DNA from: an uncultured Actinomycetota bacterium
GTDB lineage: Bacteria > Actinomycetota > Actinomycetes > Propionibacteriales > Nocardioidaceae
Assembly (NCBI GenBank): GCA_963698945.1
Contig: CAVOST010000007.1
Coordinates: forward strand, 95,362 to 159,361
Direction of reading: 5' to 3'
Length of the DNA stretch: 64,000 nucleotides
Each line of letters opens with the position of its first letter. The first letter of the stretch is position 1. The notes under the pieces are model-generated. The model was not told where the DNA came from and searched no databases. It worked only from the letters and a program-made list of their open reading frames with translations. The position numbers were made by a program, and so were the translations under genes. This document shows positions 8,706 to 63,600 of this stretch, one piece after another.

Positions 8706-9305
8706 GCGCCCGCGACGTCATCCTCAACCGCGTCCACAACGCGACCGCCACCGCGACCGCCCCCGACCCCGGGTCCCTGAGGAGGTCGCGCAGCGACCGT
8801 CTCGAAGGGCCCGCGCGCACCGCTCTGATCGACCTCTTCGTCGAGCGGGTCGAGGACTACCGCGCGGTCGTCGAGCGCTGCTCCGCTCGATGACCTCGCG
8901 GCCCGCGTGGCCGCAGCGGTCGAGGGTGGCTCGGTCGTCGTACCGGAAGGCCTCGCGCTCGACCTCCCCGGCGCCGTCGTCGACGACGGCCTCTCGGCCC
9001 TCGAGCTCGACGCCATCGACGCGGTTGTCACCCGCTCGGTGCTCGGCATCGCCGAGACCGGCACGATCGTGCTCGACCACGGCCCCGGCCAGGGCCGGCG
9101 CGCGATCACCCTGGTGCCGGACCGGCACGTCTGCATCGTCGCGGCCGACGACGTCGTCGCCGACGTCCCCGACGCGGTACCCCTGCTCGATCCCGCCCGC
9201 GCGCTCACCTGGATCAGCGGCCCCTCGGCCACCAGCGACATCGAGCTCTCCCGCGTCGAGGGCGTCCACGGACCGCGCAACCTGCACGTCATCGTCGTCG
9301 GCTGA
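8702..9305 (+). CDS. lutC: Lactate utilization protein C (LUD domain; frameshift ~8885; carries in-frame repeat)
   Basis: 'IAETGT', '[21 protein letters not shown]'; GTGA overlap with lutB. Confidence 0.85.
8771..8812 (+). repeat. Palindromic repeat family A, copy 1 (inside lutC)
   Basis: GGGTCCCTGAGGAGGTCGCGCAGCGACCGTCTCGAAGGGCCC; identical over 40-41 bp to copies at 55901 and 57055 (reverse complement). Confidence 0.95.
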
Positions 9306-9312
9306 GTCCGAT

Positions 9313-9439
9313 AGCCACGCCGAGCGGGGGATCCGTGCACGCGCCAGGGCACCGAGCGGGGGTTCCGTGCACAGGTCGCGTACTGCAAACCCCCGCTCGG
9401 CGTCGTACGACGTACCGAAATCCCCCGGTCGGCGTGGCT
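9313..9439. repeat. Nested inverted-repeat element upstream of tRNA-Ser
   Basis: Outer arms 9313-9332/9420-9439 (19/20 match); inner arms 9352-9364/9388-9400 (13/13). Confidence 0.85.
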
Positions 9440-9456
9440 CCGGTAGCCTCTCCCGC

Positions 9457-9546
9457 GGTGGCGTGTCCGAGCGGCCTAAGGAGAACGCCTCGAAAGCGTT
9501 TGTTGGAGCAATCCAACCGAGGGTTCAAATCCCTCCGCCACCGCCA
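9457..9546 (+). tRNA. tRNA-Ser (anticodon CGA)
   Basis: Acceptor stem GGTGGCG/CGCCACC, anticodon arm AACGC-CT-CGA-AA-GCGTT, long variable arm, GGTTCAAATCC T-arm, encoded CCA. Confidence 0.95.
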
Positions 9547-10067: not shown

Positions 10068-10106
10068 CTCCTCCCGATCTCTGGCTGACAGTCTGACGTG
10101 CTGGGA

Positions 10107-10133
10107 TGTCGAGGACACCTCGACGGCTCCGAC
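10107..10133 (+). promoter_or_regulatory. Putative ECF42-dependent promoter
   Basis: TGTCGA-N17-CGAC upstream of the YciI/DGPF gene and ECF42-type sigma; resembles the reported ECF42 motif (recalled, not computed). Confidence 0.55.
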
Positions 10134-10578: not shown

Positions 10579-10584
10579 GGACGC

Positions 10585-31592: not shown

Positions 31593-32158
31593 CCTCGCGC
31601 GTGCTGGTGGTCGACCACTACGACTCCTACACCTGGAACCTGGTGCACCTGGTCGCAGCGGTCACCGGCGAGCTGCCGGAGGTCGCCCAGCACGACGCCC
31701 CCGACCTGCCCGGCCGGCTCGGCGAGTTCAGCCACGTCGTGCTCTCGCCGGGGCCCGGCCGGCCGACCGACCCCGCCGACTTCGCCCTGGGCCCGGACGT
31801 CTTCGAGCGCGGTCGACCCGTCCTCGGCGTCTGCCTGGGGATGCAGGCGCTCGTCACGTCGTACGGCGGGACGGTGGCACGCGTCGAACCGGCCCACGGC
31901 GAGGTCGCCGCCGTCACGCACGACGGAGTCGGCGTGCTGGCGGGGATCCCGTCGCCCTTCGACGCCGTCCGGTACCACTCGCTCGCCGCGGTCGCGGTGC
32001 CCGACGAGCTGGAGGTCACGGCCCGCGCCGACGGCGTGGTGATGGCCGTCCGGCACCGGCAGCTGCCGCTCGAGGGCGTGCAGTTCCACCCGGAGTCGAT
32101 CCTGTCGCGGTACGGCCACGAGATCGTCGCCAACTTCCTCGGGATCCGTCGTGGCTGA
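31589..32158 (+). CDS. pabA: Aminodeoxychorismate/anthranilate synthase component II (GATase)
   Basis: 'DHYDSYTWNL', 'SPGPG', 'GVCLGMQ', 'RYHSL', 'GVQFHPES'. Confidence 0.85.
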   Translation: MTSRVLVVDHYDSYTWNLVHLVAAVTGELPEVAQHDAPDLPGRLGEFSHVVLSPGPGRPTDPADFALGPDVFERGRPVLGVCLGMQALVTSYGGTVARVEPAHGEVAAVTHDGVGVLAGIPSPFDAVRYHSLAAVAVPDELEVTARADGVVMAVRHRQLPLEGVQFHPESILSRYGHEIVANFLGIRRG

Positions 32159-33435
32159 CCCCGTTCCTGGCGTCGTCGACGTCGTGCGCGACGGCTTCGC
32201 GCGCAGCGACCGCGTGTTCTGGCTGGACGGTGGCGGCTCGCGCAACTGGTCGGGCCGCCGCTCGCTGGTCGGCGTGCTCGCCGACGACGACGTCTCGCTG
32301 TCCTTCGACGCCGGCCGCCGCGAGGTCACCCGGCACCAGGGCGGCCGGGCGGAGGTCGTCGGCGACGACGTCTTCGGCGTGCTCGAGGAGGAGGTCGCCC
32401 GCGACGACGGCGACCCGGCCGTGCACTGGGTCGGCTGCTTCGGCTACGCCGCGCGCCCGGAGCTCCCCGCGAGGCCGTGGGGCGTCGGACCGGACGCGTC
32501 TGGATGCGCTCGCGGAACGTCCAGTTCTTCACCCACGAAGCGAGTCGGGTTCCTGAGGAAGGACGAAGTCCTCCCTCGAAGGGCCCGACCCACGGATTGG
32601 TACGCCGACGCCTTCGCCCGCGTCCAGGAGGAGCTGCACGCGGGCAACACCTACGAGGTCAACCTGACCTACCGCGACGAGCTCGGCCCGGCGGCCGACC
32701 CGCTCGAGACCTACCTCCGGCTGCGCGCCACCAACCCGGCGCCGTACGCCGGCCTGCTGCGCCACCGGGGCACCCACCTGCTCAGCAGCTCACCGGAGCG
32801 CTACGCCACCGTCGACGCCGGACCGGGTGCTGGAGACCCGTCCCATCAAGGGAACGACGCCGCGTGGTGCGACGGCCGAGGAGGACGAGCGGCTGCGGCA
32901 CCGGCTGGCCACCGACCCGAAGTACCGCGCCGAGAACCTGATGATCGTCGACCTGCTGCGCAACGACCTCTCGATGGTGTGCGAGGTCGGCTCGGTCGAG
33001 GTGCCGAGCCTGATGGCGGTGGAGTCCTACGCCACGGTGCACCAGCTCGTCTCGACCGTGCGCGGGCGCCTGCGTGACGACGTCTCCACGGTCGGCGCGC
33101 TGTGGGCACTGTTCCCCGCCGGGTCGATGACCGGCGCACCCAAGCTGCGGACGATGCAGGTCATCGACGCGGTCGAGGCGACGCCGAGGGGGCCGTACGC
33201 CGGCGCCTTCGGGTGGATCTGCGCCGACGGCCGGGCCGACCTCGGGGTGGTGATCCGTTCGCTCTACGCCGGCCCCGACGGCGTCTGGCGCCTCGGCACC
33301 GGCGGCGGCATCACGGTGCGCTCCGACGTGGACGAGGAGTGGGCGGAGACGCTGTGGAAAGCACAGCGTCTCCGCGCCTCCGCTGATCAGCTGACCCTGG
33401 AGCTGCTGAACCAGGGGTGGTGCAGGTCGAGGTAG
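32151..33435 (+). CDS. pabB: Aminodeoxychorismate synthase component I (several frameshifts; end approximate; carries in-frame repeat)
   Basis: 'AGNTYEVNLT', 'SSSPERY', 'PIKGT', 'AENLMIVDLLRNDL', 'FPAGSMTGAPK', 'GGGIT'. Confidence 0.8.
32547..32586 (+). repeat. Palindromic repeat family A, copy 2 (inside pabB)
   Basis: GGGTTCCTGAGGAAGGACGAAGTCCTCCCTCGAAGGGCCC; conserved ends, inner hairpin AGGAC-GAA-GTCCT. Confidence 0.88.
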
Positions 33436-41852: not shown

Positions 41853-43129
41853 TCACTTCTTCACCCGGGTCGTCTTGGTGGAGGCGGTGTCGAGCGCCAT
41901 CTCGTCGAGCTTGTCGACACTGCGCCGGAGTCGCACGGTACCGGCGTCGGCGTCGTCGATGTCCACGATCTTGCGGAGCCGGGTCGTCGCCTCCTCGTTT
42001 CCGGTCTCCGCGGCCAGCTGCACGGCCCGGCCCAGCTTGGTGGTCGCAGTCGCGGTGTCGCCCGAGGCCTTGGCGGCCAGGCCATCCTGGATCGCCTCGG
42101 CCAGCTCGGCCTGCCCGGTGTAGTGGGCGACGGCGGGGTCGATGCGGGTCGTCAGGGTGTCGTCGTTGGACCACATGGCCTTGACGAGTCCCTGCGCCAC
42201 GACGTCGTCGCCGAGGGTGAGCTGGACCCGGGCCGCGAGCTGCTCCTGGCCGATCGCCTTGGCCGCCAGGCGTACGGCGACGTGGTAGTCGCGGGCCTCG
42301 TCGGCCCACGAGCCCGTCGGGTACGCCGACGTCAGCGCGTTGACCTCGGTGCGTCGGGCGGTGAGGTCGTCGACGGTGGGGGAGACCTGGCGGACGAAGA
42401 GGATCTCGGCCCCCTGGGGCGCCCACACCCGCAGCCACGCCTCGGCCACTCCGCGAGACATCGACTCGCGCATGATGCGCTGGAAGTCGGCGGCCATCTG
42501 CCTCGGGCGCTGCGATCAGGTCGACGGTCCCGAGCAGGGCGGTGGCGATCCGGCGCACCTCGGCGACCTGCCAGTCGGCGCCGACACCTCGGCAGTCGCA
42601 CTGGAACTGGCCCTGCGCGGCCTGGATGGCCGCCGTCAGCTGCTCGGGCGTCTCGTGCTGGTTGATGCCGTCGGTCAGCAGGATGGCGTGCTTCTGCGCG
42701 AGGCCGGGGACCGAGGCGAAGACGGACGTCGCCAGTCGCAACCAGGTGCCCATGGCGGTGCCGCCGTCGGGCCTGAGCAGGGCGATCGCCGCCTTGGCGG
42801 CCCTTCGTTGCTCGGCGTCCATCAGGACCATGCCGGCGCCTGACGCCGGGTAGAGCAGGCGGGCCTCGTGGCTGCCCGCGATGACGGCGACCCAGACGCC
42901 GTCGTGCACCTCGTCGAGGGCCGCCACCGCGGCCCGCCGCGCCGCGGCGATCTTGTCGGCGCCCATCGAGCCCGAGCTGTCGACGATCACGATCTCGCCC
43001 GGCGGCGCCCTCGCCGGAGCTGCCGGCCGTCCCGGCGTCGGCGCAGGTGACGGTGACGATCGCGTGCACGTCGCTGCCGCCCTCGGGGAGGAACTCGTTC
43101 TGGTAGACCTCAGCTGAGAACGTGGCCAT
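41853..43129 (-). CDS. VWA domain protein (frameshifts ~43010, ~42500)
   Basis: 'MATFSAEVYQNEFL', MIDAS 'DSSGS', 'GGTAMG', 'LTDG', 'RGVGADW'. Confidence 0.85.
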
Positions 43130-44307
43130 CGGGGTTGCCTTCCTGTCGTTGCGGCGTGATGCGCTGCGGTCGTGGCGTCGGGCGGCGGGGTGGTGGCGCC
43201 CCGGGTGTCGATCCGGGCGTCGATCCGGGCGAGCGCCACGGTGATGTTGTCGACACCGCCCTGGGCGTTGGCCCAGTCCACCAGCGCGCCGGCGAGAGGG
43301 AGCGGGTCTGCGGCACCGGCGGCCGAGCTCGTCCACCAGGGCGGCCAGGTCGGTCGGCTCCGAGCAGTAGTTCCACAGCCCGTCGGAGCAGACGAGCACC
43401 CAGCCCGGCCCGTCGAGGTCGAGCGAGGCGGTCTGCGGCTGGTGGTCGGGGGCGTCGCTCCCCAGCCACCGGGTGATCGCGTGTGCCTGGGGCCCGCTCT
43501 CGGCCTCGGCCCGCGGCACTCCCTGGGCGATCTGTTCGGCGGCGTACGAGTCGTCGACGCTGAGGAGGCGGGGCTCGCCCGACGTCTGGCAGCCAGTAGG
43601 CACGGCTGTCGCCGACCCAGCCCACGACGAGGAGGGAGGCGTCGACGACGGCCGCGACGAAGGTGCACGACGCGGGGTTGCCGGGACCGACGACGGTGTG
43701 CGCGATGACGGCGTCGTTGGCGGCATCGACGGCAGCCTCGAGCGCCTTGGCCGTGGCGGCGACGTGTGCGGCCGCCGTCCCGATGCCAGTGGGAGACGAG
43801 CCGGCGAGGACGTCGCGCGCGGCCCGGGCTGCCGCGAGGCTGGCGACGTCGGAGTCCTTCGAGGTCGAGACGCCGTCGCAGACGACGAGCACCGCGTGGC
43901 TCCCCGGCTCGGCCCTGGCCTCGAGTGCCACCGCGTCCTCGTTGCGCGAGTGTCGGACACCGCGGTCGCAGACGGCAGCCACCCAGGCGGCCGGCTGCTC
44001 GGTGAAGTGGTCACGCAGGCTGCGCGCCTTGGCGCCGCACTCGGTGCAGTAGCCGTCGGCGGCCACCGCGCCTCCGCACTCGTGGCACCGGGTCTCCTGA
44101 CCGGTGACGTCCGCGTCGTCGTCGGTCGGGCGCCCGGGAGGAGGCTCGGGCGAAGCCTGGGGGGCGGGCTCGGGCGAGGGCGCGGCCGAGCGTGGCGGGG
44201 TGCAGCGTCGCCCCGCAGGCCTCGCAGAACTGCTCGCTGGGCCCGACAGGCTCGTCGCACGTGGGGCACCGCGTGCTCACGGCTCCGGTCGTGCTCGGCT
44301 GCGTCAT
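43110..44307 (-). CDS. PP2C-family phosphatase with N-terminal double zinc ribbon (frameshifts)
   Basis: 'CPTC..FCEACG', 'CHEC..GYCTECG'; 'RNEDA', 'VCDGV', 'VGDSRAY', 'CSDGLWN', 'DNIT'. Confidence 0.85.
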
Positions 44308-46660
44308 CGCAGCGTCCATCGGCGTACGGCGTTGGCCCGGTCGACCAGGTCGACACGCTCCTCGCGGGTGGGGGCGTACTGCGCGAGGTCGCGGTAGGCA
44401 GCCTCGAGCCCGTCGCGGAGGTTGGGCTCCGAGGCCTCGTGCCCGGCGAAGGAGACCGTGCGATCCACTCCCTGCTTCTCGACGATCGAGAGCGCGGACT
44501 GGAGCACCTCGACCCGGAACCTGGAGCGGTCGACGGGATCGATGGTGAGGTTGTCGAGGCTCTGCAGCGCCGATGCCAGCGAGGCCAGCCCGCCGCCGGA
44601 CTCGGCCAGCAGGGTCGCGCGCCTGCGTCGGGCCGAGGTGAAGGCGCGGCTGGTGCCGGGCACGAGCTCGAGCGCGCTGATGGCGCCGGTGACGTCGCCG
44701 CGGGCCGACCGGATGCGGGCGAGACCGAAGGCCGCGGGCGCGATGTAGGCCGCGTCGGTGCGGGCGCAGGTGACGTAGAGCGACTCCGCGACGTCGCCCT
44801 CACCGCTGATCTCGCAGGCGACCGCGAGGGCCAGCTTGGGCGCGAGCTCGCCCGGGACCTGGCCGTAGACCGCGTTGAACGCACTCTGCGCGTCCGCAGT
44901 CCTGCCGCGGGACAGCGCGACGAGGCCGGACATCCACGCGGCCCGCCACTCCCAGGGGTCGTCGGCCAGCAACGCCTGGGCGGCCTGGTCCGCCTGCTCG
45001 TGGTCACCTGACTCCAGGGCTGCGCGGGACCTCGCCAGCAGCACCTCGGGGCTCACCTCGGGGGCACCCTCGAGGGCGTGCAGCCGCTGGGCGGGGTCCT
45101 CGATGCTCAACGTCCGCAGCCAGGGCGCCTGCGTGTCGCTCTCGTCGACCCGCAGCGACGGCAGGTCCTGCCAGTCGAAGACGTCCTCGGAGACCGCCGG
45201 CGACCCGAACAGCAGTGACGAGGCGGAGTGCTCGGCAGCGTCGCGACCCAGTGCGACGACCTCGCGGAGCACGCCGAGCAGCTGCACGCGCAGCTCGTCG
45301 GCGGAGACGAACCGGTCGGCCGGGTCGGGGGCGCAGGCCTTGAGCAGCAACCGGTAGAAGGAGTCGTTCGCCTGGAACAGCGGTGTCTCCTCGATCGGCG
45401 GCAGCGAGGCGACGTAGGTGCTCTGGTAGCCACGGAACTCCATGGCGAGGACGGTCAGGGTCCGCCCGATCGTGTAGATGTCCGAGGCCACCGACGGCCC
45501 GACCATCGGCACCTCCGGCGCCTGGTAGCCCGTCGTCCCGTAGATCGCCGAGTCGAGGTCGTCGAGGCGGCGCACGCCCCCGAGGTCGATGAGCTTGACC
45601 GCGTCGCCGACCTGGATGATGTTGTCCGGCTTGAAGTCGCAGTAGACCAGGTCGAGGTCGTGGAGGTACTGGAAGGCCGGCAGCACCTCGACGAGGAAGG
45701 CGATCGCCTGGTCGACGGGCAACGGGTCGTACTTGCCCCCGGCTGCCTGCATCCGCTGCTTCAGCAGCTGCTTGAGCGAGGTGCCCCCGACGTACTCCAT
45801 CACGATGTAGCCGGCGCCCTCGTGCGTCACGAAGTTGTAGATCTCGACGATCAGCGGATGCTCCACCTGCGCCAGGAACTGGCGCTCCGCGATGGCGGCC
45901 GCGAGGGCATCGGGGTCGCCGGAGTTCAGCAGCCCCTTCAGCACCACCCAGCGGTCGGAGACGTTGCGGTCGCGCGCGACGTAGATCCAGCCGAGACCGC
46001 CGTGGGCGATGGCACCGGCGACCTCGTACTGGCCGCCCACGAGGTCACCCGCCTGCAGCTTCGGTGCGAACGAGAACGGCGTCCGGCACTTGGGGCAGAA
46101 CCCCTCGGTGCGACCCGGCTGGCCGTCACGTGCGCGGCCCACCGGCGCCCCGCAGTTGGGGCAGGTGCGTCGGTCCTCGGGGACCATCGGGTTCTCGAGG
46201 ATGGCCTTGCCGGCGTCCACGGCCGGGACCGCCGGGATCGACGTCAGGCCGGCGCCCAGCCGGGCGCCGCGCAGCCTGGTCGACGACGTGCCGAGGCGTC
46301 GGGTGACCTTGGTGCCACCGGCAGCGGCGCGCGCGGAGCCGAGCGCCGTCGAGGCGAGCCTGTTGGAGGCGCGGGAGACGGTCGACGGCGCACTGCCCGA
46401 CACCGGCCGGTGCGGCGGCCGGCGCACTGGTGCTGACCGCAGCGGCAGCGGGGGTGCCGCAGACGTCGCAGTACCCGTCGACGATGGTGCCGCCGCAGCC
46501 GGGCTGCCCGCAGGGCCCGCCGGCCGCCCCGATGCTCGGGGGCGGAGCGGTCGCCGGCTGTCGCTGCCGGGGCGGCGGCGGCCGGCGATCCGCAGACGTC
46601 GCAGTACCCGTCGAGGATCGAGCCCGTGCAGCCGGGCTGGGTGCACGCAGCGGCCGTCAT
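44304..46660 (-). CDS. pknG: PknG-like Ser/Thr kinase (zinc ribbons, rubredoxin-like CxxC pair, kinase, TPR; 5' frameshifts)
   Basis: 'IAHGGLGWIY', 'VVLKGLL', 'YCDFKPDN', 'LIDLGG', 'PGELAPKLA', 'LVDRANAVR'. Confidence 0.85.
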
Positions 46661-47848
46661 GGTCTGCCTCCCGGGGGCCGTCTGGCTGCTGCGCCTCGCG
46701 GCTGGCCAGGTAGCCCTGGTACGCCGCGAGCAGGGCGCGGGCGCGCGCGAGGTCGGCGGGCGAGGTGTCGAGGACCTCGGTCGCGCGGCGCTCCAGGTCC
46801 TGGAGGTCCTCCCCGGCGGCGCCCACGGCGGCGGCCTTGGCGGCGTACCCCTCCAGCCGGCCGCGCAGCTCGTCGCGCTCGCCGAGGGCGGCGGCGTACG
46901 CCTCCTGCGCCACGGTCATGGCGCGTCCGACTGCGTCGAGCCTGGCCAGGTAGGCGTCCACGGCTCCGGGCCCGTGGGGGACCGGGCCGAGGACGGTGAC
47001 GTCGGGCACCGCGAACCGGGGCGCCGGCGCGACCTCCGCGACGCAGCGCGTCGCCAGGTCGCGGAGCGCCGCGCCGCGGGCGAGCAGCTCGTCGCGGAGT
47101 GCCCGTGCCCTGGCTTCGTCGTGCGCATGGGCACGACGGGTGGAGGCAGCGACGATCAGGTCGCGCTCGCCCCGGGCGACGTCGTGCTCCAGCGGGCCGA
47201 GCAACCCCTCGACCGTTGCTCCGCGCTTCGCCCGGGCGGTCGCGTCGGTGACACGGGCGTCCAGCTTGGAGAGCAGGATCGTTTGCGGCGTCGTGGCTGG
47301 CGGCCGGCTCCCGCTCGACGAGGTCGCGCACCCGCTCCACACCGGCCCGGAGCTGGCGAAGACGGGCCGTGGTGTCCGCCTCCGACGCGTCGATGCCGAG
47401 GCGGGCGCGCAGGGAGGCGGCCAGCGCGTCCGAGAGCCGGCAGGCCTCGGGCAGCGAGACCGCGAGGGCCCCGACGGACTGGAGCCTGGCTGCGTCGGGT
47501 GCGCTGCCGGGGAGCTGCCGGGTGGCGTCCAGCCGACCCCACACCAGCGTGCTGAGCCGTTCGAGCTCGTTCTGGCCGACGCGACCGGAGTCCCAGGTGA
47601 CCAGGAGCAGGTCGAGCCGGTCGGCGGCCGCCTTCCACAGCGCCATCGACAGGAGCAGGTCGTCGGTGAGGGCGGAGGTGTCGGAGGCCTCCAACACGGC
47701 CTGGTCGAGCTGGTCGAGCTCGGCCTTGCGCCGGTCGCGCCAGCTGGTGAGCGCCTCGAGGTACCGCAACGCCTCGTCGGCGGCCATCGCCCGGCCGAGA
47801 CGACCGGGCGCGATCGGTGCGCTCGTCGTCGGCGGCGGCGGCGATCAC
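46657..47848 (-). CDS. Conserved hypothetical helical/coiled-coil protein (frameshifts)
   Basis: High-GC3 frames 'EALRYLEALTSWRDRRKAELD...' and '...ERDELRGRLEGYAAKA'; overlaps both neighbours. Confidence 0.7.
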
Positions 47849-48864
47849 GGCGTCCGCCCGTACACGGCGTCCGGCGGAGCCGGGGCAGGGCCCAGCGCGT
47901 CGGCCAGCCACTTCTTGTAGCTGCCGGCCCACCGCCCGTCACCCTTCGTGTTCTCGACGACCCGGTTGACGAACCTGACGAAGTCCACGTTCTTCTGGTT
48001 GATCCCGAGTCCGTAGGGCTCCGCGGTGAACGCAGGTGCCTGCACCACCTCGGCGTACGGGTCCTGGGCGGCGAGCCCGGCCAGCACCGTGTCGTCGCCG
48101 GTGATCGCATCGACCTTGCCCTCCTGGAACAGCACCAGGCAGCCGGTGTGCGCGTCGGCGCCGACCGCCTCGACGTCCTTGAAGGTCCGCAGCTTGTCCA
48201 TGCTCGTCGAGCCGTTGGGGGCGCAGACCTTCTTGCCCTTCAGGTCCTTCATCCCGGTGATGGGGCCGCCGGTCGGCGGTCTTCTCGCCGAGACGCACCA
48301 GGACCTTCTGGCCGGAGCGGTAGTACTCCCCGGAGAAGGCGATGAGCTTCCACCGGGCGCAGTTGATCGTCATGTTGCGGGCGACGATGTCGACGCTGCC
48401 GTCCTGCAGCACGGGAGCGCGCTGCGGCGGCGGTGATCACCCGGAGCTCGATCCGGTCGGGGTCGCCGAAGATCGCGTCCGAGATGGCGTGCAGCATGTC
48501 GATGTCGAAGCCCTCGATCTTGCCCGAGATCGGGTTGCGGGCCCCCAGGAGCAGGGTGTCGGCCGAGACTCCGGCGATCAGCCGACCGCGCTTCTGGATC
48601 TTCGCCATGGTAGGATCCCGCGGGCATCTCGCGGGGAGCGGGCAGCGTCTGGTCGGGGGCGTAGGACCGCAGGCAGTTGGCGGTCGTGATGTCGGAGCCG
48701 CCGGGCGCGGCCGGGGCCGCCGGGGCGCTGCTCGCGGACGGTGAGGGCGAGGGGCTCTGGGTGGGAACGGGCGTGGCCGCGTAGTCACCCGCCGACGAGC
48801 AGGCGCCCAGCAGCGAGGCCGTCGCCACCATGGCGAGGACGACCGGTGCCAGGTGCCTGCGCAT
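47845..48864 (-). CDS. GlnH-like glutamate/glutamine-binding lipoprotein (frameshifts)
   Basis: Lipobox 'LLGAC'; 'IEGFDID', 'MTINCAR', 'CLVLFQEGKVDAITGDDTVLAGLAAQDP', 'EPYG'. Confidence 0.85.
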
Positions 48865-50240
48865 CACCGGTACTCCTCCAGCCGCTGCGCGACGCCCCAC
48901 CAGGCGAGCAGGCCCGCGATGATCCCGGCGAGCAGGCCGAGGACCGCGGCGAGCGGCAGCCAGCCGCCGGCCTGGTCGAGGTCGGTCGCCGTGTCCTTGC
49001 CGAGCGACGAGAGCTGGGCTCCCGAGCTCTCGTCGAAGTCGGCGAACGTGACGTTGCCCGACCCGGACGTCGTGGACGTCGCCAGCGCGACGGCGCGCTC
49101 CCAGTTCCCGCTGTCGTCGAGCGCGCGGATCTTCTCGTGCACGGTCGCGTAGGGCGTCCCACGGCAGCGGATCGAGGCCGTCGGCCGCCGAGTTCTGCCC
49201 GAGGTCGTGCGAGCTGGCGCTGCACGACGTCGTCCGATGCCTTCCAGGCGTCCTCGAAGGCCGCGCCCGAACCGCGGGCGATCAGCGTCAGGCTCTCGTT
49301 GGACTTGGCGTCGAAGCCGGCGATCCGCGCCTGCGCCGTGGACAGGGTCGCCGCGTAGACGCCGTCCTGCACGGTCGTCGACCCGGTTGCCGACGCCGAA
49401 CAGGCCGATGGCACCGACCACCAGGGCCACGAACACGATCACGGCTGCTGCGGCGAGCGGCACGTTCACGTAGCGCCGCGTCCGGCGCGCGAGCCAGACC
49501 AGGGCCAGGCCGAGGACCAGGAGGGTGAGCACGCCCGCGCACGACCAGCCAGAGGGCAGCGTTCCCGGCGTTGTCGAACTCCTCGGCGGCGCGCGCGTTG
49601 TTGGCGTCCACCAGGTTCTTGAGCGGAGGCAGGGCCTCGGCGCGGAGCTCGGCGCTGGCGTCCTTGAGGTACTGGGAGCCGATCGGGAGTGCCTGGCGGT
49701 TGTTGGCCCGCGCCTGCTCGATCGTGCTCGCGTAGGTGACCAGGGCCTCGTTCAGCGCGCCCAGCGCCTCGCCCGTCGGCCGGCTGGCTCTTGGCGGCCT
49801 CGGCGATCAGCTGCGAGGCCGAGGAGATGGAGTCGGTGTAGTCGGCACGCTGCTCCGCCGGCTCCAGACCGCCCACGAGGAACGCGTTCGTGGCGTCCGC
49901 GTCGGCCTGTACGACGTGGTTCTGGATCGCCTGCACCCGGATGAGCTGGTCGGTGTTCGCCTGCGCTCGTGCCAGGGCGCCGTCCGCCGCACGGAAGGAG
50001 TAGCCCGGCCACCAGGCCGAAGATCACGGCGGCGAGGACGGTGACGGCGGCGACCGCTCGCATCCGCCCGGGGGTGCCCTCGAAGCCGGAACGCATGGAC
50101 GCGGCCAGCGAGCGCAGCCGGGTGCCGACAGTCGCGGACGTGCCGGGTGCAGGCGCCGGGCCGGGTGCCGGCGCCGGGCCGGGTGCAGGCGTCGGCGCAG
50201 GCGCCGTGGCTCCCGCCGTACCGCTCCTGGTCACCGTCAC
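48864..50240 (-). CDS. GlnX-like membrane protein (multiple frameshifts)
   Basis: 'GTPGRMR', 'ADADATNAFL', 'ARANNRQA.P.G..YL', 'RRTRRYVNVPL', C-terminal 'QRLEEYR'. Confidence 0.75.
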
Positions 50241-51693
50241 GAGGCTCCTCCCGAACTCGGGCCGGGGGTGCCGGGCTCCGTCGAGGCATCATCCCGACCG
50301 GAGGTCGACGGGGGAACCCCCTCGTCGATCGGATCCTCGTCGAAGTCGCGGGCGACGAGCTGGCGCAGCTCGTCGCGGGTGGGTGCGGCCGTGTCGCGCA
50401 GCCGCCAGGCCTGGTGCCCGATCGCCGACTCGAGGGCGTTGCGCGCGAACCGCCCGTTGCCGAAGGCCTCGCCCCGTGGGGTCCGCCCCAGCGTCTCGCG
50501 GAAACGCTCGACGGCCTCGGGCACGACCTCGTAGTCGGCGCCGTCCGCGAGCTGGAGCAGGATCGCGACGAGCTCGTCGTCGGTGTAGTCCTCGAACTCG
50601 ATCGTGGTGCGGAACCTGCTGGCCAGACCGGGGTTCGCGCTGATGAAGACCTTCATCGGTGCCGGGTAGCCGGCGACGATGACGACGAGGTCGTCGCGGC
50701 GGTCCTCCATCTCCTTGACCAGGGTGTCGACGGACTCCTGGCCGTACTGGTCGCCCAGCGGACTCGTCCCGGTCAGGCTGTAGGCCTCGTCGATGAACAG
50801 CACCCCGCCGGCGGCGGAGGCGACCACCTCGGCCGTCTTCGTGGCCGTCTGGCCGAGGTAGCCCGCCACCAGCTCGGAGCGGTCGACCTCGACGAGCAGA
50901 CCCCGGGAGAGCAGGCCCAGGGCGCGGTAGATCCCGCCGACCAGCCGGGCGACGGTCGTCTTGCCCGTGCCCGGGTTGCCGGTGAACACGAGGTGCCGGG
51001 TCAGCGTGGGACTGCGCAGCCCGGCCTCGCCGCGCAGCTTCTCGACCCGCAGGAGCGCGACCTGCCGGTGGATCTCGCGCTTGACCCGCTGGAGGCCGAT
51101 CAGGGCGTCGAGCTCTGCGAGCAGCTCGTCGAGGGTGCGTTCGTGCTGCTCCGGGGCGGGTGGCGCCTGCTCGGCCTGGGCCGCCGCGGTGGCGGTGCTC
51201 GCAGTCGCGTCAGCGGCGGGGGCAGGCGGCATCGCCTGGCATGGCTGGGGTCGACTGAGGGCGGTGGACGGCACCGAGCTGGGCGGCGGCCGCGACCGAG
51301 GCGTTGCCGATGACACGCATGGTGGGTTCGCCGAGCTGGCAGGCGGCCGAGGCCACCTCGGCGAGCAGGGTCGCGTACCTCTCGGCGTCGGGGGAGCCCT
51401 GGGCGGCCAGCGCGCCGAGCACGGCGGTGGGCGAGCCGCGCCACCGTCGTCCCCGGCTGGCGGCGTCGAAGAAGTCCTGGGTGGTGGCGCCGGGGCCGGC
51501 CGCCTCGGCCCAGTCGGCCGCTGCCCCGGGGGCCGACTCGGCGACCGCTGCGGCGAGGGTGAGTCGCCTCGTCGCGGGCGGCCTGCTGGTCCGCGCCGGC
51601 CGCTGCGGCCACCTTGGCGAGGGCCTCGACGGCGTCGCTCAGGGTCAGCGTCGAGGGCGGGTTCGAGGGCGGGCTCGGCTTGGGTGCGTCCAT
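50237..51693 (-). CDS. CbxX/SpoVK-type AAA+ ATPase with helical N-terminal domain (frameshifts)
   Basis: 'LDALIGLQRVK', 'GNPGTGKTTVAR', 'LFIDEAY', 'NPGLASRF', 'FGNGRFARN'. Confidence 0.85.
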
Positions 51694-52331
51694 CAGGCAT
51701 CACGGCCGGCGGGCGGCTGCAGGCGCAGGCCACCGGGGTCCTGACCCTCCGCGGCCCCCGCGCCGGTCCCGGGTCCTGGCGGTTTCGACGCGTCCGGCAT
51801 CGGTGGCAGCGGGGCCGAGCCGACGTTGAGGACGCCTCCGGTCGAGCCGGCTCCGAACTTCTCCTCGAGGAAGCGCCCGTGCGCCACCAGTGCGGCCGCG
51901 TCCTCCCGGCACACCGCGTCGAACACCTTGTCCATGGTGGCGGCCAGCAGGTCGAGCTGGTCGATGAGGAGCATCAGCGAGGACTTGCCCCGGTCGACCG
52001 GGCGGTTGTCCGCGAACTGGCGTGGCAGCCGCAGGTAGCCGCCCACCGCCTCCGGCAGGTAGTCCGTGGCGGTCGCCATGACGGAGTAGGCCTGCGGGCT
52101 GCCGGCGCCGAGGTTCTTCAGCCGGGGGATGGTGTCGCGTACGACGCGGTCGACCCGTCGTACGCGCGACGCGACGGGTGCCGGGACAGCGCCGGCCGAG
52201 ACCATCGTCTCGACGCGCGTCAGCGCCGCGAGCAGGTCGTCACTGGTCGGCACGCGTGACACGGCGGACGAGTCACTGCTCTCCGCTCGCTCAGGTCGGC
52301 CGAAGAGGCGGCCGAAGAACCCGCGTGCCAC
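51693..52331 (-). CDS. Hypothetical protein (partner of TelA; possibly XpaC-like)
   Basis: 'TDYLPEAVGGYLRLP', 'LVAHGRFLEEKF'; strong RBS; adjacent to TelA. Confidence 0.7.
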   Translation of the reverse strand: MARGFFGRLFGRPERAESSDSSAVSRVPTSDDLLAALTRVETMVSAGAVPAPVASRVRRVDRVVRDTIPRLKNLGAGSPQAYSVMATATDYLPEAVGGYLRLPRQFADNRPVDRGKSSLMLLIDQLDLLAATMDKVFDAVCREDAAALVAHGRFLEEKFGAGSTGGVLNVGSAPLPPMPDASKPPGPGTGAGAAEGQDPGGLRLQPPAGRDA

Positions 52332-52370
52332 GCGACCACTCTCCCCTCATGTCTGTGGACGGCCGGACGA

Positions 52371-53597
52371 CTACGGTGATCCGCCGAGGTCCAGCGACCC
52401 GTGTGCCACGCCCTGGTCCTGTCGCTCGACCCGCCCGAGGTACTCCCGGGACTTCGTCACCTCGGTCTCGAGCGTCCCGATGGTCGCGGCCATGTTGTCC
52501 AGGGCCTGCACCTTGAACGTGTCGATCGCGTCCATCGTGGCGTAGATGTTCTCGAAGGCGGCCTGCAGCTGGGGCAGTCCCACCGTGGCCGACGCGGCCT
52601 GCTCCTGGATCTGGGCCGAGTTGTCGCGCAGCATCTCGCTGGTGCGCTCGATCATCCCGGACGTGGTCGTGTTCAGCGCCGTGATCTGGTCGAGCACGAG
52701 CTTCTGGTTGCCGAGCGCCTGGGCCACGATCACGGCCGTGCGCAGCGCCGAGATGGTCGTGGTCGACGCGCGGTCGACACCCTTGACCAGCTCGATGTTG
52801 TTCTTGATGACGATGTCGATCGCCAGGTAGTTCTGGATGGAGACCGCGAGCTGGGTCAGCAGGTCCTGGTGCTTCTGCCGCACGTAGAACAGCACGTCCT
52901 CGCGCAGCGCCTTGGCCCGCTCCGGGTCGGTCGCGTCGAGGTCGGCGATGGCGGCCGCGAGGCGCGCGTCGAGGCGCTCGCTGACGTAGACGTACTGGTT
53001 CAGCCGGGCCATCGCCTCCCACAGCTGCTGCTTCTCGAGGTTGAGCGCCGCGTTGTCCTTGCCGAGCTCGTCCTGGCCCTCGCGCAGGGCGTGCAGGATG
53101 CCGTCGAGGTGCTTCTCAGCCGACTGGTACTTGCGGAAGTAGTCGGTCACCTTGTCCCTGAACGGGAGCATGTCCAGGAGCTTCTTGGCCCCCGTGGCCT
53201 CCTTGGGGTCGAGGTCCTCGATGGTCCTGCGGAGGTCGAGAAGGGTCGAGCCCACCTTGGACCCCTCGGAGAGACCGCCCTCCTGCAACGCCTTCACGGG
53301 CGACTTCAGGAGCCGGTTGGACGTCTCGGCAGCCCGACGGATGTCGGCGTCGCCCATCGTGCGCACGTCGGTGGCCTTGGACGCGAACTCCGGCGAGCGG
53401 GGTGCGGCCGTCATCAGGCTGGTGAGGAAGGTGTCCACCTTCGCGTCGAGGCCCGGCAGCGCAGCGGCCTCGACGGCGGGTGCCATCCGCGGCGCCGAGG
53501 TGGCGGCGACGGGCTCCGGTGCGGGTGGAGCCACCAGCTGCAGCGATGACGCGGTGGCCGCGGGTGGCTGCAGCGGCGCCGACTCGGCATCGGTCAT
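52371..53597 (-). CDS. Toxic anion resistance protein (TelA family)
   Basis: 'YFRKYQSA', 'L.KDNAAL', 'RQKHQDLLTQ', 'NNIELVKGVDRA..TT..AL'. Confidence 0.88.
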   Translation of the reverse strand: MTDAESAPLQPPAATASSLQLVAPPAPEPVAATSAPRMAPAVEAAALPGLDAKVDTFLTSLMTAAPRSPEFASKATDVRTMGDADIRRAAETSNRLLKSPVKALQEGGLSEGSKVGSTLLDLRRTIEDLDPKEATGAKKLLDMLPFRDKVTDYFRKYQSAEKHLDGILHALREGQDELGKDNAALNLEKQQLWEAMARLNQYVYVSERLDARLAAAIADLDATDPERAKALREDVLFYVRQKHQDLLTQLAVSIQNYLAIDIVIKNNIELVKGVDRASTTTISALRTAVIVAQALGNQKLVLDQITALNTTTSGMIERTSEMLRDNSAQIQEQAASATVGLPQLQAAFENIYATMDAIDTFKVQALDNMAATIGTLETEVTKSREYLGRVERQDQGVAHGSLDLGGSP

Positions 53598-55753: not shown

Positions 55754-55761
55754 GTTGGGGC

Positions 55762-55845
55762 GGGCCCTTCGAGCGGGCCTTGCAGGCCCTCCTCAGGGAC
55801 CCGATCTCCGTCCCTTGCAGGCCCTCCTCAGGGACCCGATCTCCG
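55762..55845 (-). repeat. Palindromic repeat family A, copy 3, plus a 33-bp tandem partial duplication
   Basis: GGGCCCTTCGAGCGGGCCTTGCAGGCCCTCCTCAGGGACCC (55762-55802); 55778-55810 repeated exactly at 55813-55845. Confidence 0.9.
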
Positions 55846-55900
55846 CGCGTTGCCAGGCCCCTTCTTGGACGAGATCTAGGTTGCGAATGAGCGTGACGCC

Positions 55901-55941
55901 GGGTCCCTGAGGAGGTCGCGCAGCGACCGTCTCGAAGGGCC
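55901..55941 (+). repeat. Palindromic repeat family A, copy 4
   Basis: Identical to copy 1 over 41 bp. Confidence 0.95.
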
Positions 55942-57054: not shown

Positions 57055-57094
57055 GCCCTTCGAGACGGTCGCTGCGCGACCTCCTCAGGGACCC
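57055..57094 (-). repeat. Palindromic repeat family A, copy 5
   Basis: Exact reverse complement of copies 1 and 4 over 40 bp. Confidence 0.95.
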
Positions 57095-57122
57095 TGTCGG
57101 TGGTCGGGTCCATGCTCGCGAC

Positions 57123-59997: not shown

Positions 59998-61149
59998 ATG
60001 AGCCAGCCCATCGGGCCCGACCTCGTCGAGGTCTTCGGGCCCTCCCAGCAGGACGGCGGTCCCCAGCTCGTCCAGCTGCTGACGCCCGAGGGCGAGCGGG
60101 TGCACCATCCCGACTTCGACCTCGAGTTCACCGCAGAGCAGCTGCGTGGCTTCTACCGCGACATGGTGCTGACCCGGCGCATCGACACCGAGTCGACCGC
60201 GCTGCAGCGCCACGGTGAGCTCGGCATCTGGGCCCAGCTGCTCGGCCAGGAGGCGGCCCAGATCGGCTCCGGTCGCGCGCTGCGCCAGCAGGACTACGTC
60301 TTCCCGACCTACCGCGAGCACGGGGTCGCCTGGTGCCGCGGCGTCGACCCGCTGAAGCTGCTCGGGCTGTTCCGTGGCGTCGACCAGGGCAACTGGGACC
60401 CCTTCGAGCACAACTTCGGCAACTACACGATCGTGATCGGCGCCCAGACCCTGCACGCGACCGGCTACGCCATGGGCGTGCAGCGCGACGGGGCGGTCGG
60501 CACCGGCGACCCCGATCGGGACACCGCCGTCGTGGCCTACTTCGGTGACGGCGCGAGCAGCCAGGGCGACGTCAACGAGTCCTTCATCTTCGCGGCGTCG
60601 TACAACGCGCCCGTGGTGTTCTTCTGCCAGAACAACCAGTGGGCGATCTCCGAGCCCATCGAGCGCCAGACCAGGATCCCGCTCTACCAGCGGGCCCTCG
60701 GTTTCGGCTTCCCGGGCGTGCGGGTCGACGGCAATGACGTGCTCGCGACGTACGCCGTGACGCAGGCCGCCTTGCAGCGCGCCCGCGAGGGGAGCGGCCC
60801 GACCCTCGTGGAGGCCTACACCTACCGGATGGGTGCCCACACCACGACCGACGACCCCACGCGCTACCGCCTCTCCGAGGACGTCGAGACCTGGAAGCTC
60901 AAGGACCCGATCGCCAGGCTCGAGGTGTACCTGCGGCGCAACGGCCTGGTCGACGACGACTTCATCGGCACGCTCCAGCAGGAGGCTGCCGACCTCGGCG
61001 CCCACCTGCGCGAGGGCTGCAAGGCGCTGGTCGACCCGGACCCGCGACTGGTCTTCGACCACGTCTTCGCCGAGTCGACGGAGGAGCTCGCGGCGCAGAA
61101 GGCCGGCTTCGCGGAGTACCTCGACTCCTTCGAGGAGGCCCACTCATGA
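59998..61149 (+). CDS. pdhA: Pyruvate/branched-chain 2-oxoacid dehydrogenase E1 alpha
   Basis: 'GQEAAQ', TPP motif 'FGDGA...NN', 'YRMGAHTTTDDP'. Confidence 0.92.
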   Translation: MSQPIGPDLVEVFGPSQQDGGPQLVQLLTPEGERVHHPDFDLEFTAEQLRGFYRDMVLTRRIDTESTALQRHGELGIWAQLLGQEAAQIGSGRALRQQDYVFPTYREHGVAWCRGVDPLKLLGLFRGVDQGNWDPFEHNFGNYTIVIGAQTLHATGYAMGVQRDGAVGTGDPDRDTAVVAYFGDGASSQGDVNESFIFAASYNAPVVFFCQNNQWAISEPIERQTRIPLYQRALGFGFPGVRVDGNDVLATYAVTQAALQRAREGSGPTLVEAYTYRMGAHTTTDDPTRYRLSEDVETWKLKDPIARLEVYLRRNGLVDDDFIGTLQQEAADLGAHLREGCKALVDPDPRLVFDHVFAESTEELAAQKAGFAEYLDSFEEAHS

Positions 61150-62123
61150 GCAAGGTGACGCTGGCCAAGGCCCTGAACTCCGGGCTGCGCAAGGCCATGG
61201 AGGACGACCCCAAGGTCCTGATCATGGGCGAGGACGTCGGCAAGCTCGGTGGCGTCTTCCGGATCACCGACGGCCTGCAGAAGGACTTCGGCGAGGACCG
61301 CGTGATCGACTCGCCGCTGGCCGAGTCCGGCATCCTCGGCACCGCCGTGGGGCTGGCCATCCGCGGCTACCGGCCGGTCTGCGAGATCCAGTTCGACGGC
61401 TTCGTCTACCCGGCCTACGACCAGATCGTCAGCCAGGTCGCGAAGATGCACTTCCGCACGCAGGGCAAGGTCCGCATGCCGATGGTCGTCCGGATCCCGT
61501 TCGGCGGGGGCATCGGCGCGGTCGAGCACCACTCCGAGAGCCCCGAGGCGCAGTTCGCCCACACGCCCGGCCTCAAGGTCGTCGCCTGCTCGAACCCGGT
61601 CGACGGCTACTGGATGATCCAGCAGGCCATCGCGTGCGACGACCCGGTGATCTTCCTGGAGCCCAAGCGGCAGTACCACGCCGACAAGGCCGAGCTCGAC
61701 GAGGGCGCCACCCCGCTGCCGCTGTTCTCCACCCACGTCGTGCGCCGCGGCACCGACATCACCGTGATCGCCTACGGGCCCACGGTGAAGACGGCGCTCA
61801 AGGCGGCCGAGGCCGCGTCGGGCGAGGGCCGGTCGATCGAGGTGGTCGACCTGCGCACGCTGTCGCCGCTCGACATGGGGCCGGTTCTCGAGTCGGTACG
61901 ACGCACCGGGCGCGCCGTCGTCGTCCACGAGGCCCACGTCAACCTCGGCATGGGTGCCGAGGTCGCGGCCCGGATCACCGAGGAGTGCTTCTACTCGCTG
62001 GAGGCGCCGGTGCTGCGCGTCGGCGGCTTCGACACCCCGTACCCGCCCTCCCGCATCGAGGAGGAGTGGCTCCCCGACCTCGACCGGGTCCTGGACGCCG
62101 TCGACCGGACCTTCACCTTCTAG
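61146..62123 (+). CDS. pdhB: 2-oxoacid dehydrogenase E1 beta
   Basis: 'GEDVGKLGGVFR', 'DSPLAE', 'EIQF', 'EHHS', 'DLRTLSPLD'. Confidence 0.92.
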   Translation: MSKVTLAKALNSGLRKAMEDDPKVLIMGEDVGKLGGVFRITDGLQKDFGEDRVIDSPLAESGILGTAVGLAIRGYRPVCEIQFDGFVYPAYDQIVSQVAKMHFRTQGKVRMPMVVRIPFGGGIGAVEHHSESPEAQFAHTPGLKVVACSNPVDGYWMIQQAIACDDPVIFLEPKRQYHADKAELDEGATPLPLFSTHVVRRGTDITVIAYGPTVKTALKAAEAASGEGRSIEVVDLRTLSPLDMGPVLESVRRTGRAVVVHEAHVNLGMGAEVAARITEECFYSLEAPVLRVGGFDTPYPPSRIEEEWLPDLDRVLDAVDRTFTF

Positions 62124-62132
62124 GAGCGTGGC

Positions 62133-63600
62133 ATGAGCTTCGAGTACAAGCTGCCCGACGTGGGCGAAGGCCTCACGGAGGCCGACATCGTCTCGTGGCG
62201 CGTCAAGGAGGGCGACGTCATCGAGATCAACGACATCGTCGTCGAGATCGAGACCGCCAAGTCGCTGGTCGAGCTCCCTTCGCCGTACGCCGGCACGGTG
62301 CTGGCCCTGCTCGTGGCCGAGGGCGAGACGGTCGACGTCGGCACCCCGATCATCCGCATCGGCGACGAGGCGGCTGACCGGGTTCCTGAGGAAGGCCCCC
62401 CGGGGCCCGTCTCGAAGGGCCCGGAGACGGGCCCGGAGCCTTCAGAGCCCGAGATCGACCTCTCCAACCCCGCAGCCAGCGGCGGCGGTGAGGGCGAGAG
62501 CCTGGTGGGCCGCAACAAGGCCGACCGCGGCCCCACGCGGCGACCGCGCCGCGGGTCGGCCAGCCCGTCGAGCGAGGCGGGGGCGGCCACCCAGATGCAG
62601 GTCCAGGGCGCGTTCAGTCCGGGCGGCGCCCAGTCGCAGCCGGTCGTCGAGGCCGACGAGCCGGCGGTCCCGGGTGCGGTGGGGGCGCAGGAGCCCGCGC
62701 CGGTGGGCGAGGTGCGCGCGCTCGCGAAGCCTCCCGTGCGACGACTGGCCCGCGACCTCGGTGTCGACCTGACCTCGCTGACCGGCTCCGGTCCGTCCGG
62801 CTCGGTCACCCGCGACGACGTACAGGCGGCTGCGCAGGGCGGTGGCGGGCCCTCGAGACGGTTGCTGCGCAACCTCCTCAGGGACCCGAGGAGCGGGAGC
62901 GGCGCGAGCCGATCAAGGGCGTCCGCAAGATGATGGGCCAGGCGATGGTCGACTCGGCGTTCACGGCGCCCCACGTGACCGAGTGGGTCACCGTCGACGT
63001 CACCCGCACGATGGAGTTCGTCGAGCGGCTGCGCGGCCACCGCGACTTCCGCGACGTCAAGGTCTCCCCGCTCCTCGTGCTGGCCCGGGCCTGCATGCTG
63101 GCGATGCGTCGTACGCCGGAGATCAACTCGTTCTGGGACGAGGCAGCGCAGGAGATCTGCTTCAAGTCCTACGTCAACCTCGGCATCGCCGCGGCCACCC
63201 CGCGCGGGCTGGTCGTGCCCAACGTCAAGGACGCCGAGCGGCTCTCGCTGCGCGACCTGGCCGAGGCGCTCGCCGAGCTCACTGCGACCGCGCGCGATGG
63301 CCGGACCCAGCCCGCCGAGATGAGCGGCGGGACGTTCACCATCACCAACGTGGGTCCGTTCGGCGTCGACGGCGGCACCCCGATCATCAACCCGGGCGAG
63401 TCCGCGATCCTCTGCTTCGGCGCGGTCAAGCGGCAGCCCTGGGTGGTCGGCACCGGCAGGACGAGCGGCTGGAGATCCGCGACGTGTGCACCCTCGCGCT
63501 GAGCTTCGACCACCGCCACGTCGACGGCGAGAAGGGATCGCGCTTCCTCTCCGACGTCGCAGCCATGATGGGAGATCCCGCCGCGGCCCTGCTGTTCTGA
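62133..63600 (+). CDS. Dihydrolipoamide acyltransferase E2 (frameshifts ~62853 and ~63460; two in-frame repeats)
   Basis: Lipoyl 'ETAKS', PSBD 'AKPPVRRLA..GSG..G.VTR.D', catalytic 'FTITN', 'FDHRHVDG'. Confidence 0.9.
62380..62422 (+). repeat. Palindromic repeat family A, copy 6 (inside E2)
   Basis: Conserved ends GGGTTCCTGAGGAA ... CGTCTCGAAGGGCCC with inner hairpin GGCCCC/GGGGCC. Confidence 0.9.
62847..62887 (-). repeat. Palindromic repeat family A, copy 7 (inside E2)
   Basis: GGGCCCTCGAGACGGTTGCTGCGCAACCTCCTCAGGGACCC; one T short of consensus. Confidence 0.9.

What the first reader, a model, noticed from the sequence alone, without database searches (positions are those of the whole stretch)
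8771..62887. Dispersed 40-43 bp palindromic element with a covarying inner hairpin, translated in frame in several housekeeping proteins
Seen: seven full copies at 8771(+), 32547(+), 55762(-), 55901(+), 57055(-), 62380(+) and 62847(-). All share the ends GGGT(C/T)CCTGAGGA...CTCGAAGGGC(CC); the copy at 62847 lacks one base. The centres differ in sequence but always form a hairpin: GGTCGC-GCA-GCGACC (x3), GGTTGC-GCA-GCAACC (compensatory C-G to T-A), GGGCCT-GCA-AGGCCC, AGGAC-GAA-GTCCT and GGCCCC-CC-GGGGCC. Four copies lie inside CDSs and are read in three different frames or orientations ([24 protein letters not shown] twice; [14 protein letters not shown]). The one forward frame containing TGA is never used. 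Known: GNA triloops stabilise ssDNA hairpins; REP/REPIN elements and Rickettsia palindromic elements (RPEs) show similar behaviour; from memory, a similar CCTGAGGAG...CGTCTCGAAGG repeat exists in alphaproteobacteria. Inference: a structure-recognised, non-autonomous mobile element family that supplies new peptide sequence to actinobacterial proteins. Its mobilising enzyme is not in this window.
Basis: partly seen in the sequence, partly recalled or inferred. Interest (0 to 1): 0.85.

Follow-up and report, generated by a model that had tools for sequence, protein, structure and literature searches.

The report
Mobile DNA hairpins rewriting protein linkers
A short DNA hairpin is scattered in about 60 copies through this soil bacterium's genome, lands in frame in loops and linkers of housekeeping proteins, trades places there with an unrelated repeat, and flanks a tiny DNA-cutting gene that likely spreads it.

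Summary
The seven copies are real, plus one partial copy. The genome holds 58 strict copies against 0-1 in shuffles. The element is a REP-like hairpin: a covarying outer stem, a fixed GAG/CGA core and an exchangeable inner hairpin. Its partner is a ~95-aa GIY-YIG nuclease gene, not a RAYT. 74 of 91 homologous genes carry hairpins on both sides (0 of 80 control windows), the cassette sits at 12 different sites in relatives, and Y1 transposase was found in 0 of 56 genomes. The layout is like Ssn/SRM, but the SRM test fails and the protein branches separately. In-frame coding copies are confirmed by orthologues. But the assembly is indel-prone, two of the four peptides need frame corrections, most copies are intergenic, and the TGA frame is used as a stop codon. 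E2, LutC, PabB and LeuRS linkers are re-colonised in separate lineages, and E2 linker 2 swaps between this hairpin and an unrelated palindrome. That the nuclease cuts or moves the hairpin is untested. This scan has noted GIY-YIG/hairpin pairs and E2-linker palindromes before on other genomes. New variant of a known kind.

The parts
8770..8813 (+). Full hairpin element inside the N-terminal region of lutC (LUD domain), read as [14 protein letters not shown]
   Evidence: site empty in G017, other variants in G116, G012, G024, G108
8702..9305 (+). lutC host gene; one extra base near 8885 relative to all six orthologous loci (probable assembly error, outside the element)
32546..32587 (+). Degenerate hairpin element in the linker ahead of the chorismate-binding domain of pabB; frame ambiguous as assembled
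32151..33435 (+). pabB-like host gene, with several frame breaks in the assembly
55761..55803 (-). Full intergenic element, 8 bases after the stop of a DDAH/ADI-family gene
55809..55837 (-).
55900..55941 (+). Full intergenic element just upstream of the aminotransferase gene at 55957; inverted partner of 55761; relative G108 has a whole nuclease cassette upstream of the same gene
57055..57095 (-). Full intergenic element; not seen next to either flanking gene in G024, G012, G116, G108
62379..62423 (+). Full element in E2 linker 1 (after the lipoyl domain), read as RVPEEGPPGPVSKGP; relatives carry the same ends with a different inner hairpin
62846..62888 (-). Element in E2 linker 2 (after the E3-binding domain), one base short; intact and in frame in G024; replaced by an unrelated palindrome in G108, G116, G012
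62133..63600 (+). E2 dihydrolipoamide acyltransferase host gene (PF00364, PF02817, PF00198), in three frames as assembled

Best explanation
The repeats are gene-less members of a REP-like hairpin family whose gene-bearing form is a ~95-residue GIY-YIG nuclease gene bracketed by two inverted hairpins, and that nuclease likely spreads them. SHOWN: the anatomy (covarying outer stem, fixed GAG/CGA core, exchangeable inner hairpin); the bracketing; cassettes at many unrelated sites; lineage-specific blooms; in-frame copies in linkers, loops and tails; repeated occupation of the same spots by different variants and by an unrelated palindrome. INFERRED: (1) the strand folds so that the core forms two tandem sheared G.A pairs (a pyrimidine-GA-purine motif; recalled chemistry, no call) and this is what the nuclease reads; (2) by analogy with SsnA it nicks single-stranded DNA beside the hairpin; (3) host repair then copies a hairpin into the break and overwrites a few local bases, which would explain replacement without a target duplication; (4) selection removes copies that break proteins, so survivors sit between genes, supply stop codons, or encode Pro/Glu/Ala/Gln-rich peptides in flexible linkers.
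For: Bracketing: 74 of 91 distinct homologous loci have the hairpin within 350 bp on both sides and 88 on at least one; control windows 1.1-1.45 kb away 0 of 80 both sides, 20 of 80 one side; 67 of 85 two-sided loci are inverted the same way. Core versus stem: 441 canonical matches near the genes against at most 65 for any single change in GAG/CGA, while the outer stem takes many complementary forms. Copy number: at least 100 pattern matches in 23 of 28 nuclease-bearing genomes against 4 of 27 without; medians 175 and 63 (threshold chosen after seeing the data, kin not independent, background of chance matches included). Mobility: 16 of 39 cassettes map with both flanks to this genome, at 12 distinct sites; six have a gap of only 13-338 bases here. 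The genome's own cassette is flanked by the same CCCT/AGGG type as its dispersed copies. Consensus keeps two Tyr and the Glu at positions like those mutated in SsnA (PMC11893778). No Y1 transposase in 56 genus genomes. Empty and swapped sites. No target duplication in 42 single copies. Frames: 17 of 22 coding copies use two of the five open frames (p about 0.004 after post-hoc correction, copies not independent).
Against: No binding, cutting or movement was tested. G017 (complete, one contig, 76 copies) and G023 (621 matches) have no nuclease found, so blooms can outlast or not need it. The genome's own nuclease gene has four extra bases against its intact G116 orthologue, far above the background error rate, so it may be dead. 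SsnA, the only characterised analogue, is shown to restrict incoming DNA, not to move repeats. GIY-YIG enzymes are hydrolytic and have no known joining step (established knowledge), so insertion needs host repair. Nearest relatives are only 83-91% identical, so junctions are blurred and the direction of the swaps cannot be fixed. None of 80 viral loci with the element had the gene within 600 bp.
Confidence: 0.6

Rival explanations
1. The nuclease is a host-kept, Ssn-like ssDNA restriction enzyme that recognises the hairpins but does not move them; copies spread and swap by ordinary recombination, gene conversion and slippage.
For: This is what SsnA was shown to do (PMC11893778). Tandem partial copies (21 of 37 adjacent pairs are same-strand) look like slippage. 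Inner hairpins swap while the ends stay (E2 linker 1). Nuclease-free genomes with many copies exist.
Against: It does not explain cassettes at 12 unrelated sites with empty alleles, arrival at sites with no homology such as the LeuRS loop, or the patchy presence of the gene (28 of 55).
Confidence: 0.25
2. The hairpins are selected RNA elements (mRNA stabilisers or terminators) and the nuclease link is incidental.
For: Most copies are intergenic, often within 20 bases of a stop codon; Di Nocera et al. argue this for REPs (PMC3733652).
Against: No strand bias (27 +, 30 -), no Rfam match, occupancy differs between close relatives, and tight bracketing of one gene family. A secondary RNA effect is not excluded.
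Confidence: 0.06
3. The in-frame peptides are selected functional linkers and the DNA palindrome is a by-product.
For: The E2 linker-1 copy is shared by five related genomes; frame use is biased.
Against: Orthologous sites hold different peptides from different strands, frames and even repeat families, or none; the same DNA is mostly intergenic.
Confidence: 0.04
4. A RAYT or IS200/IS605 Y1 transposase moves the element, as for GTAG REPs.
For: Inverted dimers with a fixed polarity (15 back-to-back, 1 face-to-face) resemble REPINs; no target duplication.
Against: PF01797 found in 0 of 56 genus genomes while it rings in 6 of 14 controls; no GTAG end.
Confidence: 0.05

Closest known systems
Ssn nucleases (SsnA, CDD cd10448) with NTS/SRM hairpins, Chenal et al. 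2025, PMC11893778
   Same: Single-domain ~95-aa GIY-YIG gene bracketed by a directional hairpin that is also dispersed in tens to hundreds of copies; 35-39% identity between L010 and three NTS-flanked proteins.
   Different: The hairpin does not match the SRM pattern (0 of 74 elements, 0 of 105 loci); NTS-flanked proteins form their own long branch; the paper's table gives strict cd10448 'NO' for all 30 Nocardioides rows seen of 123, loose 'YES' for 16; coding copies are 5-19% here against 2% for NTS.
REP/REPIN elements with RAYT, and CGTC-tagged REPs (Di Nocera et al. 2013, PMC3733652)
   Same: Small dispersed palindromes, singles, dimers and arrays, mostly intergenic, some in frame in genes (tRNA synthetases and DNA repair genes among them), some supplying stop codons.
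   Different: No RAYT; no GTAG end; nested two-stem structure with an internal GA/GA core instead of an 8-9 bp stem with a 4-5 nt loop; Actinobacteria and this sequence are not in the text. Figure 2 with the CGTC consensus sequences was not visible to me.
Rickettsia palindromic elements (Ogata et al. 2000, 2002; seen only as summarised in PMC10969869)
   Same: In-frame insertion into unrelated housekeeping genes.
   Different: About 44 nt rather than about 150; several frames and both strands rather than one conserved peptide; a candidate partner enzyme; repeated turnover at the same site.
UPF0213 small GIY-YIG proteins (PDB 1zg2, 1ywl; E. coli YhbQ)
   Same: Best solved-structure hits of the nuclease (E 4.7e-13 and 7.6e-10).
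   Different: E. coli YhbQ is only 29% identical and has no such hairpins within 350 bp; the subfamily of the hairpin-flanked clade was not resolved.

Membership tests
Ssn/SRM | Single-domain GIY-YIG protein under 150 aa | tested here: met
   PF01541 over residues 1-73 of 95; median length 102
Ssn/SRM | Gene flanked on both sides by a dispersed hairpin | tested here: met
   74 of 91 loci
Ssn/SRM | Hairpin fits the SRM pattern | tested here: not met
   0 of 74 elements, 0 of 105 loci
Ssn/SRM | Protein falls in the cd10448 clade | tested here: inconclusive
   CDD not available; three NTS-flanked proteins form a separate long branch whose root position is unresolved; the paper's strict column is NO for 30 of 30 Nocardioides rows seen
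Ssn/SRM | Binds and cuts ssDNA beside its hairpin | not testable with these tools
   needs purified protein
GTAG REP/REPIN with RAYT | RAYT (PF01797) gene in the genome or genus | tested here: not met
   0 of 56 genomes
GTAG REP/REPIN with RAYT | Terminal GTAG tetranucleotide | tested here: not met
   flank profiles in four genomes
GTAG REP/REPIN with RAYT | Dispersed, mostly extragenic, inverted dimers | tested here: met
CGTC REP families 1-4 | Terminal CGTC, 8-9 bp stem, 4-5 nt loop, CCA tail | tested here: not met
   CGTC is internal and the element has two nested stems; text criteria only, the paper's figure not seen
MITE | Target-site duplication and TIRs matching an IS transposase | tested here: not met
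   best excess 6 of 42 against 1.9 expected for a 3-mer, over 363 settings tried
Rickettsia palindromic elements | In-frame insertion into unrelated genes with empty orthologous sites | tested here: met
Rickettsia palindromic elements | About 150 bp, one conserved peptide, expressed protein | tested here: not met
   44 nt and several frames; expression not testable here

The most novel reading that the evidence does not exclude
A second, unpublished clade of ~95-aa GIY-YIG nucleases acts as a transposase substitute: it reads a tandem G.A core in folded ssDNA, moves its own 400-500 bp cassette and gene-less hairpins, and does so by overwriting, preferentially where a hairpin of any family already sits, so that protein linkers are rewritten again and again by competing selfish palindromes.
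Probability: 0.3. Interest if true: 0.85.

Novelty: new variant of a known kind. Interest (0 to 1): 0.58.

Why it matters
How non-RAYT palindromic repeats spread is open: Di Nocera et al. found no dedicated transposase for CGTC repeats, and Chenal et al. only raised mobility as a hypothesis for Ssn. Here a different hairpin and nuclease clade show cassette mobility, empty sites and a copy-number link, and give named intact proteins with their cognate substrates, so the question can be tested directly. It would also be a second source of small site-specific ssDNA nucleases. For protein evolution it shows that the variable linkers of E2, LutC, PabB and LeuRS in this genus are partly written, and overwritten, by mobile DNA.

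Tried and rejected
Rfam: only a tRNA in the window at gathering scores; four weak miRNA-precursor matches below threshold on two cassettes. Read check of the frameshifts: no run held more than 12% of the words. RAYT: rejected. Target duplication: one 4-base repeat at the LeuRS copy, but no general signal. K-turn reading of the GA/GA core: rejected by inspection, there is no 3-nt bulge. NCBIfam has no model for the nuclease above cut-off. The narrow pattern alone gave a weak nuclease link (at least 10 copies in 11 of 28 against 4 of 27, counted) because variants differ; the wider patterns were then used. Phylum draw: none of 300 other genomes had more than 5 matches to the long variant (tally includes unpublished G119, G166, G206; no other claim rests on them or on G085). 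One pattern hit (G000:C8:117426) is a chance match and was dropped before counting. Twenty of 105 nuclease loci gave no clean ORF and were left out of the profile; 45 of the remaining 85 were drawn for the tree. Partner gene of the second palindrome family: none evident in 16 loci. No structure was predicted. Literature searches that found no description of this hairpin or pair; the library lacks most subscription papers.
Full report
OBSERVATION. The genome (G000, 3.36 Mb, 75% complete) has 58 strict copies against 0-1 in three shuffles, and 91 profile hits in 57 loci. The exact pattern occurs in 13 of 24 same-genus genomes, at 0 to 109 copies, and in none of 16 genomes of other families in the order. 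None of 300 other genomes across the phylum has more than 5 matches to the long variant. The closest named homologues of the partner gene are mostly from Nocardioides; the genome itself is unnamed.

ANATOMY. The element is outer stem + Y-GAG + inner module + CGA-R + outer stem. Near homologous nuclease genes the canonical core gives 441 matches, while any single change in GAG or CGA gives at most 65; the outer stem appears as GGTT/AACC, GGTC/GACC, CGTC/GACG, CCCT/AGGG and other complementary pairs. The inner module ranges from a 5-nt loop (137 of 455) to nested hairpins of 17-29 nt. That the core forms two sheared G.A pairs is my inference from recalled DNA chemistry; ViennaRNA draws another register. 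There is no Rfam match and no target duplication. Inverted neighbours have a fixed polarity, 15 back-to-back against 1 face-to-face.

THE PARTNER GENE. Between copies at G000:C9:157.2-157.6 kb lies a frame-broken small GIY-YIG gene; G116 has an intact orthologue at the same site. Using an intact relative (L010, 95 aa, PF01541) I fetched 110 loci, 105 distinct. Of the 91 with full flanks, 74 have the hairpin on both sides and 88 on at least one; control windows give 0 and 20 of 80. Most two-sided loci (67 of 85) have the same inverted layout. They include Actinomycetota, Pseudomonadota, Anaerolineales and a Bacteroidetes bin. Among 55 near-complete genus genomes, 23 of 28 with the gene have at least 100 pattern matches against 4 of 27 without; the threshold is post hoc, kin are not independent, and G017 and G023 are clear exceptions. 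Of 39 cassettes, 16 map with both flanks to G000, at 12 distinct sites, six with a gap of only 13-338 bases. In G108 the cassette abuts the orthologue of the window's gene at 55957, where the window has only hairpins. No Y1 transposase was found in 56 genus genomes.

CODING COPIES. The assembly is indel-prone: 14 of 43 orthologues are frame-broken, and lutC, pabB and E2 all are. Coding copies are a minority: 4/75, 3/31, 5/30 in three high-quality genomes (all listed loci fetched for G017; 30 of 111 matches for G061 and 30 of 75 for G065) and 10/54 here. The TGA frame ends genes in 5 cases, 3 confirmed by homologue length. 17 of 22 coding copies use the two frames that give Pro/Glu/Ala/Gln-rich peptides. 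Of nine other host proteins scanned, seven carry the insert outside their Pfam matches (linkers or tails of TrmH, a hydrolase-CMD fusion, RibBA, a peptidase S9, NuoH, GrpE, a methyltransferase) and two inside (LeuRS, a carboxyltransferase).

REPEATED COLONISATION. LeuRS: 117 nt here against 93 in the four nearest relatives, and short variants of the hairpin in the same loop of G104 and G008, with decayed forms in four more of the 30 loci. LutC: single copy here, tandem in G116, reverse variant in G012, inverted dimer in G024, empty in G017. PabB: this type in G024, another variant in G116, empty in G017. E2 linker 1: 7 of 32 rows carry the family, with the inner hairpin swapped between close relatives. 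E2 linker 2: 5 of 30 rows carry this family in four different forms and 16 carry an unrelated 42-46 nt palindrome, itself dispersed (13 loci in G000, 38 copies in G047). In the five-genome clade, G000 and G024 have the first and G108, G012 and G116 the second, and G024 nests with G012 and G116 at 100/99 support (tree built without the linkers). At least two swaps, or one transfer of the linker, are needed. Linker length barely changes (125-133 nt), so this is replacement and not addition; at LeuRS a 41-nt element adds only 24 nt. Relatives are 83-91% identical, so later drift could mimic overwriting, and selection alone could concentrate survivors in linkers.

MECHANISM. Most likely the nuclease reads the folded core and nicks ssDNA beside it, as SsnA does with its own hairpin, and host repair copies hairpins or whole cassettes into breaks, overwriting local bases; purifying selection leaves intergenic, stop-codon and linker copies (0.6). 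The main rival is a restriction-only enzyme with spread by recombination (0.25). Neither cutting nor movement was tested.

COMPARISON. It works like Ssn/SRM in layout, but the SRM pattern matches 0 of 74 elements and 0 of 105 loci, three NTS-flanked proteins form a separate long branch although they score well against the profile (56-67 bits against 49 for E. coli YhbQ), and the Ssn paper's strict column is NO for all 30 Nocardioides rows I saw of 123. It works like REP/REPIN and RPE in dispersal and in-frame insertion, which are published. What I saw of each paper: PMC11893778, parts 1-6 of 11 of the text, passages, and part of Supplementary Data 4 (files 13 and 14 not searched; figures not held); PMC3733652, abstract, first part, passages and section 15 (figures and supplements not seen, and its Figure 2 could bear on the CGTC comparison); PMC10969869, passages; Ogata 2000 and 2002, not read. 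Searches found no description of this hairpin or pair. This scan's own notes hold 101 findings with the same words on other genomes, and two on E2-linker palindromes; these are unchecked AI notes, and I had found the gene, the Ssn paper and the E2 swaps before reading the respective notes.

VERDICT. A real mobile hairpin family with a well-supported GIY-YIG partner; the in-frame peptides are real but a tolerated by-product. New variant of a known kind; interest 0.58.

Noticed in passing
L134, L135, L163 (E2 linker 2); G000:C5:1561-1661, C6:51442-51541, C10:22334-22433, C23:22083-22182 and others: A second, unrelated 42-46 nt palindrome family with CGTCATACG ends and a variable centre, mostly as tandem pairs between convergent genes; read in frame as TSYE...SYD in E2. 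No SRM-type or partner gene identified.
   Followed up: partly
G000:C2:93900-95363 (L206): About 1.2 kb with no called gene next to a pair of the second palindrome; holds frame-broken ORF pieces that could be its partner gene.
   Followed up: no
G000:C9:157.2-157.6 kb (L001, L459): The genome's own small GIY-YIG gene has four extra bases against the intact G116 orthologue, about thirty times the background break rate; pseudogene or local assembly error.
   Followed up: partly
L265 (G065) and G000:C5:65842-66951: A RecF-like protein (named from recall of the sequence, not scanned) has a full in-frame element in G065; G000 has only GFET at the same spot, a possible remnant.
   Followed up: no
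L186/L185 (G024, gene after the aminotransferase): In-frame short-variant hairpin, 30 nt in place of 9 nt in G012 and G116.
   Followed up: partly
G000:C16:18993-19406: Element copies interleaved with two repeated pieces that look like the end of a tRNA gene, and a CCACG-spaced tandem unit.
   Followed up: no
G000:C12:131776-131841 and C14:321803-321870: A short-variant hairpin nested inside the inner module of a long-variant element.
   Followed up: no
L482-L561 (viral contigs): At least 142 viral-contig stretches carry the long variant, mostly with CTCAT/ATG-type outer flanks as in alphaproteobacterial loci; none of 80 had the nuclease gene within 600 bp.
   Followed up: partly
window:9457-9543: tRNA gene just after lutC; G108 and G116 have element copies near the orthologous position.
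   Followed up: no
whole window: Many genes are split by single-base indels (for example 5105-6526, 6537-7275, 42332-53022), in line with an unpolished assembly; frame-based observations in this genome need care.
   Followed up: partly
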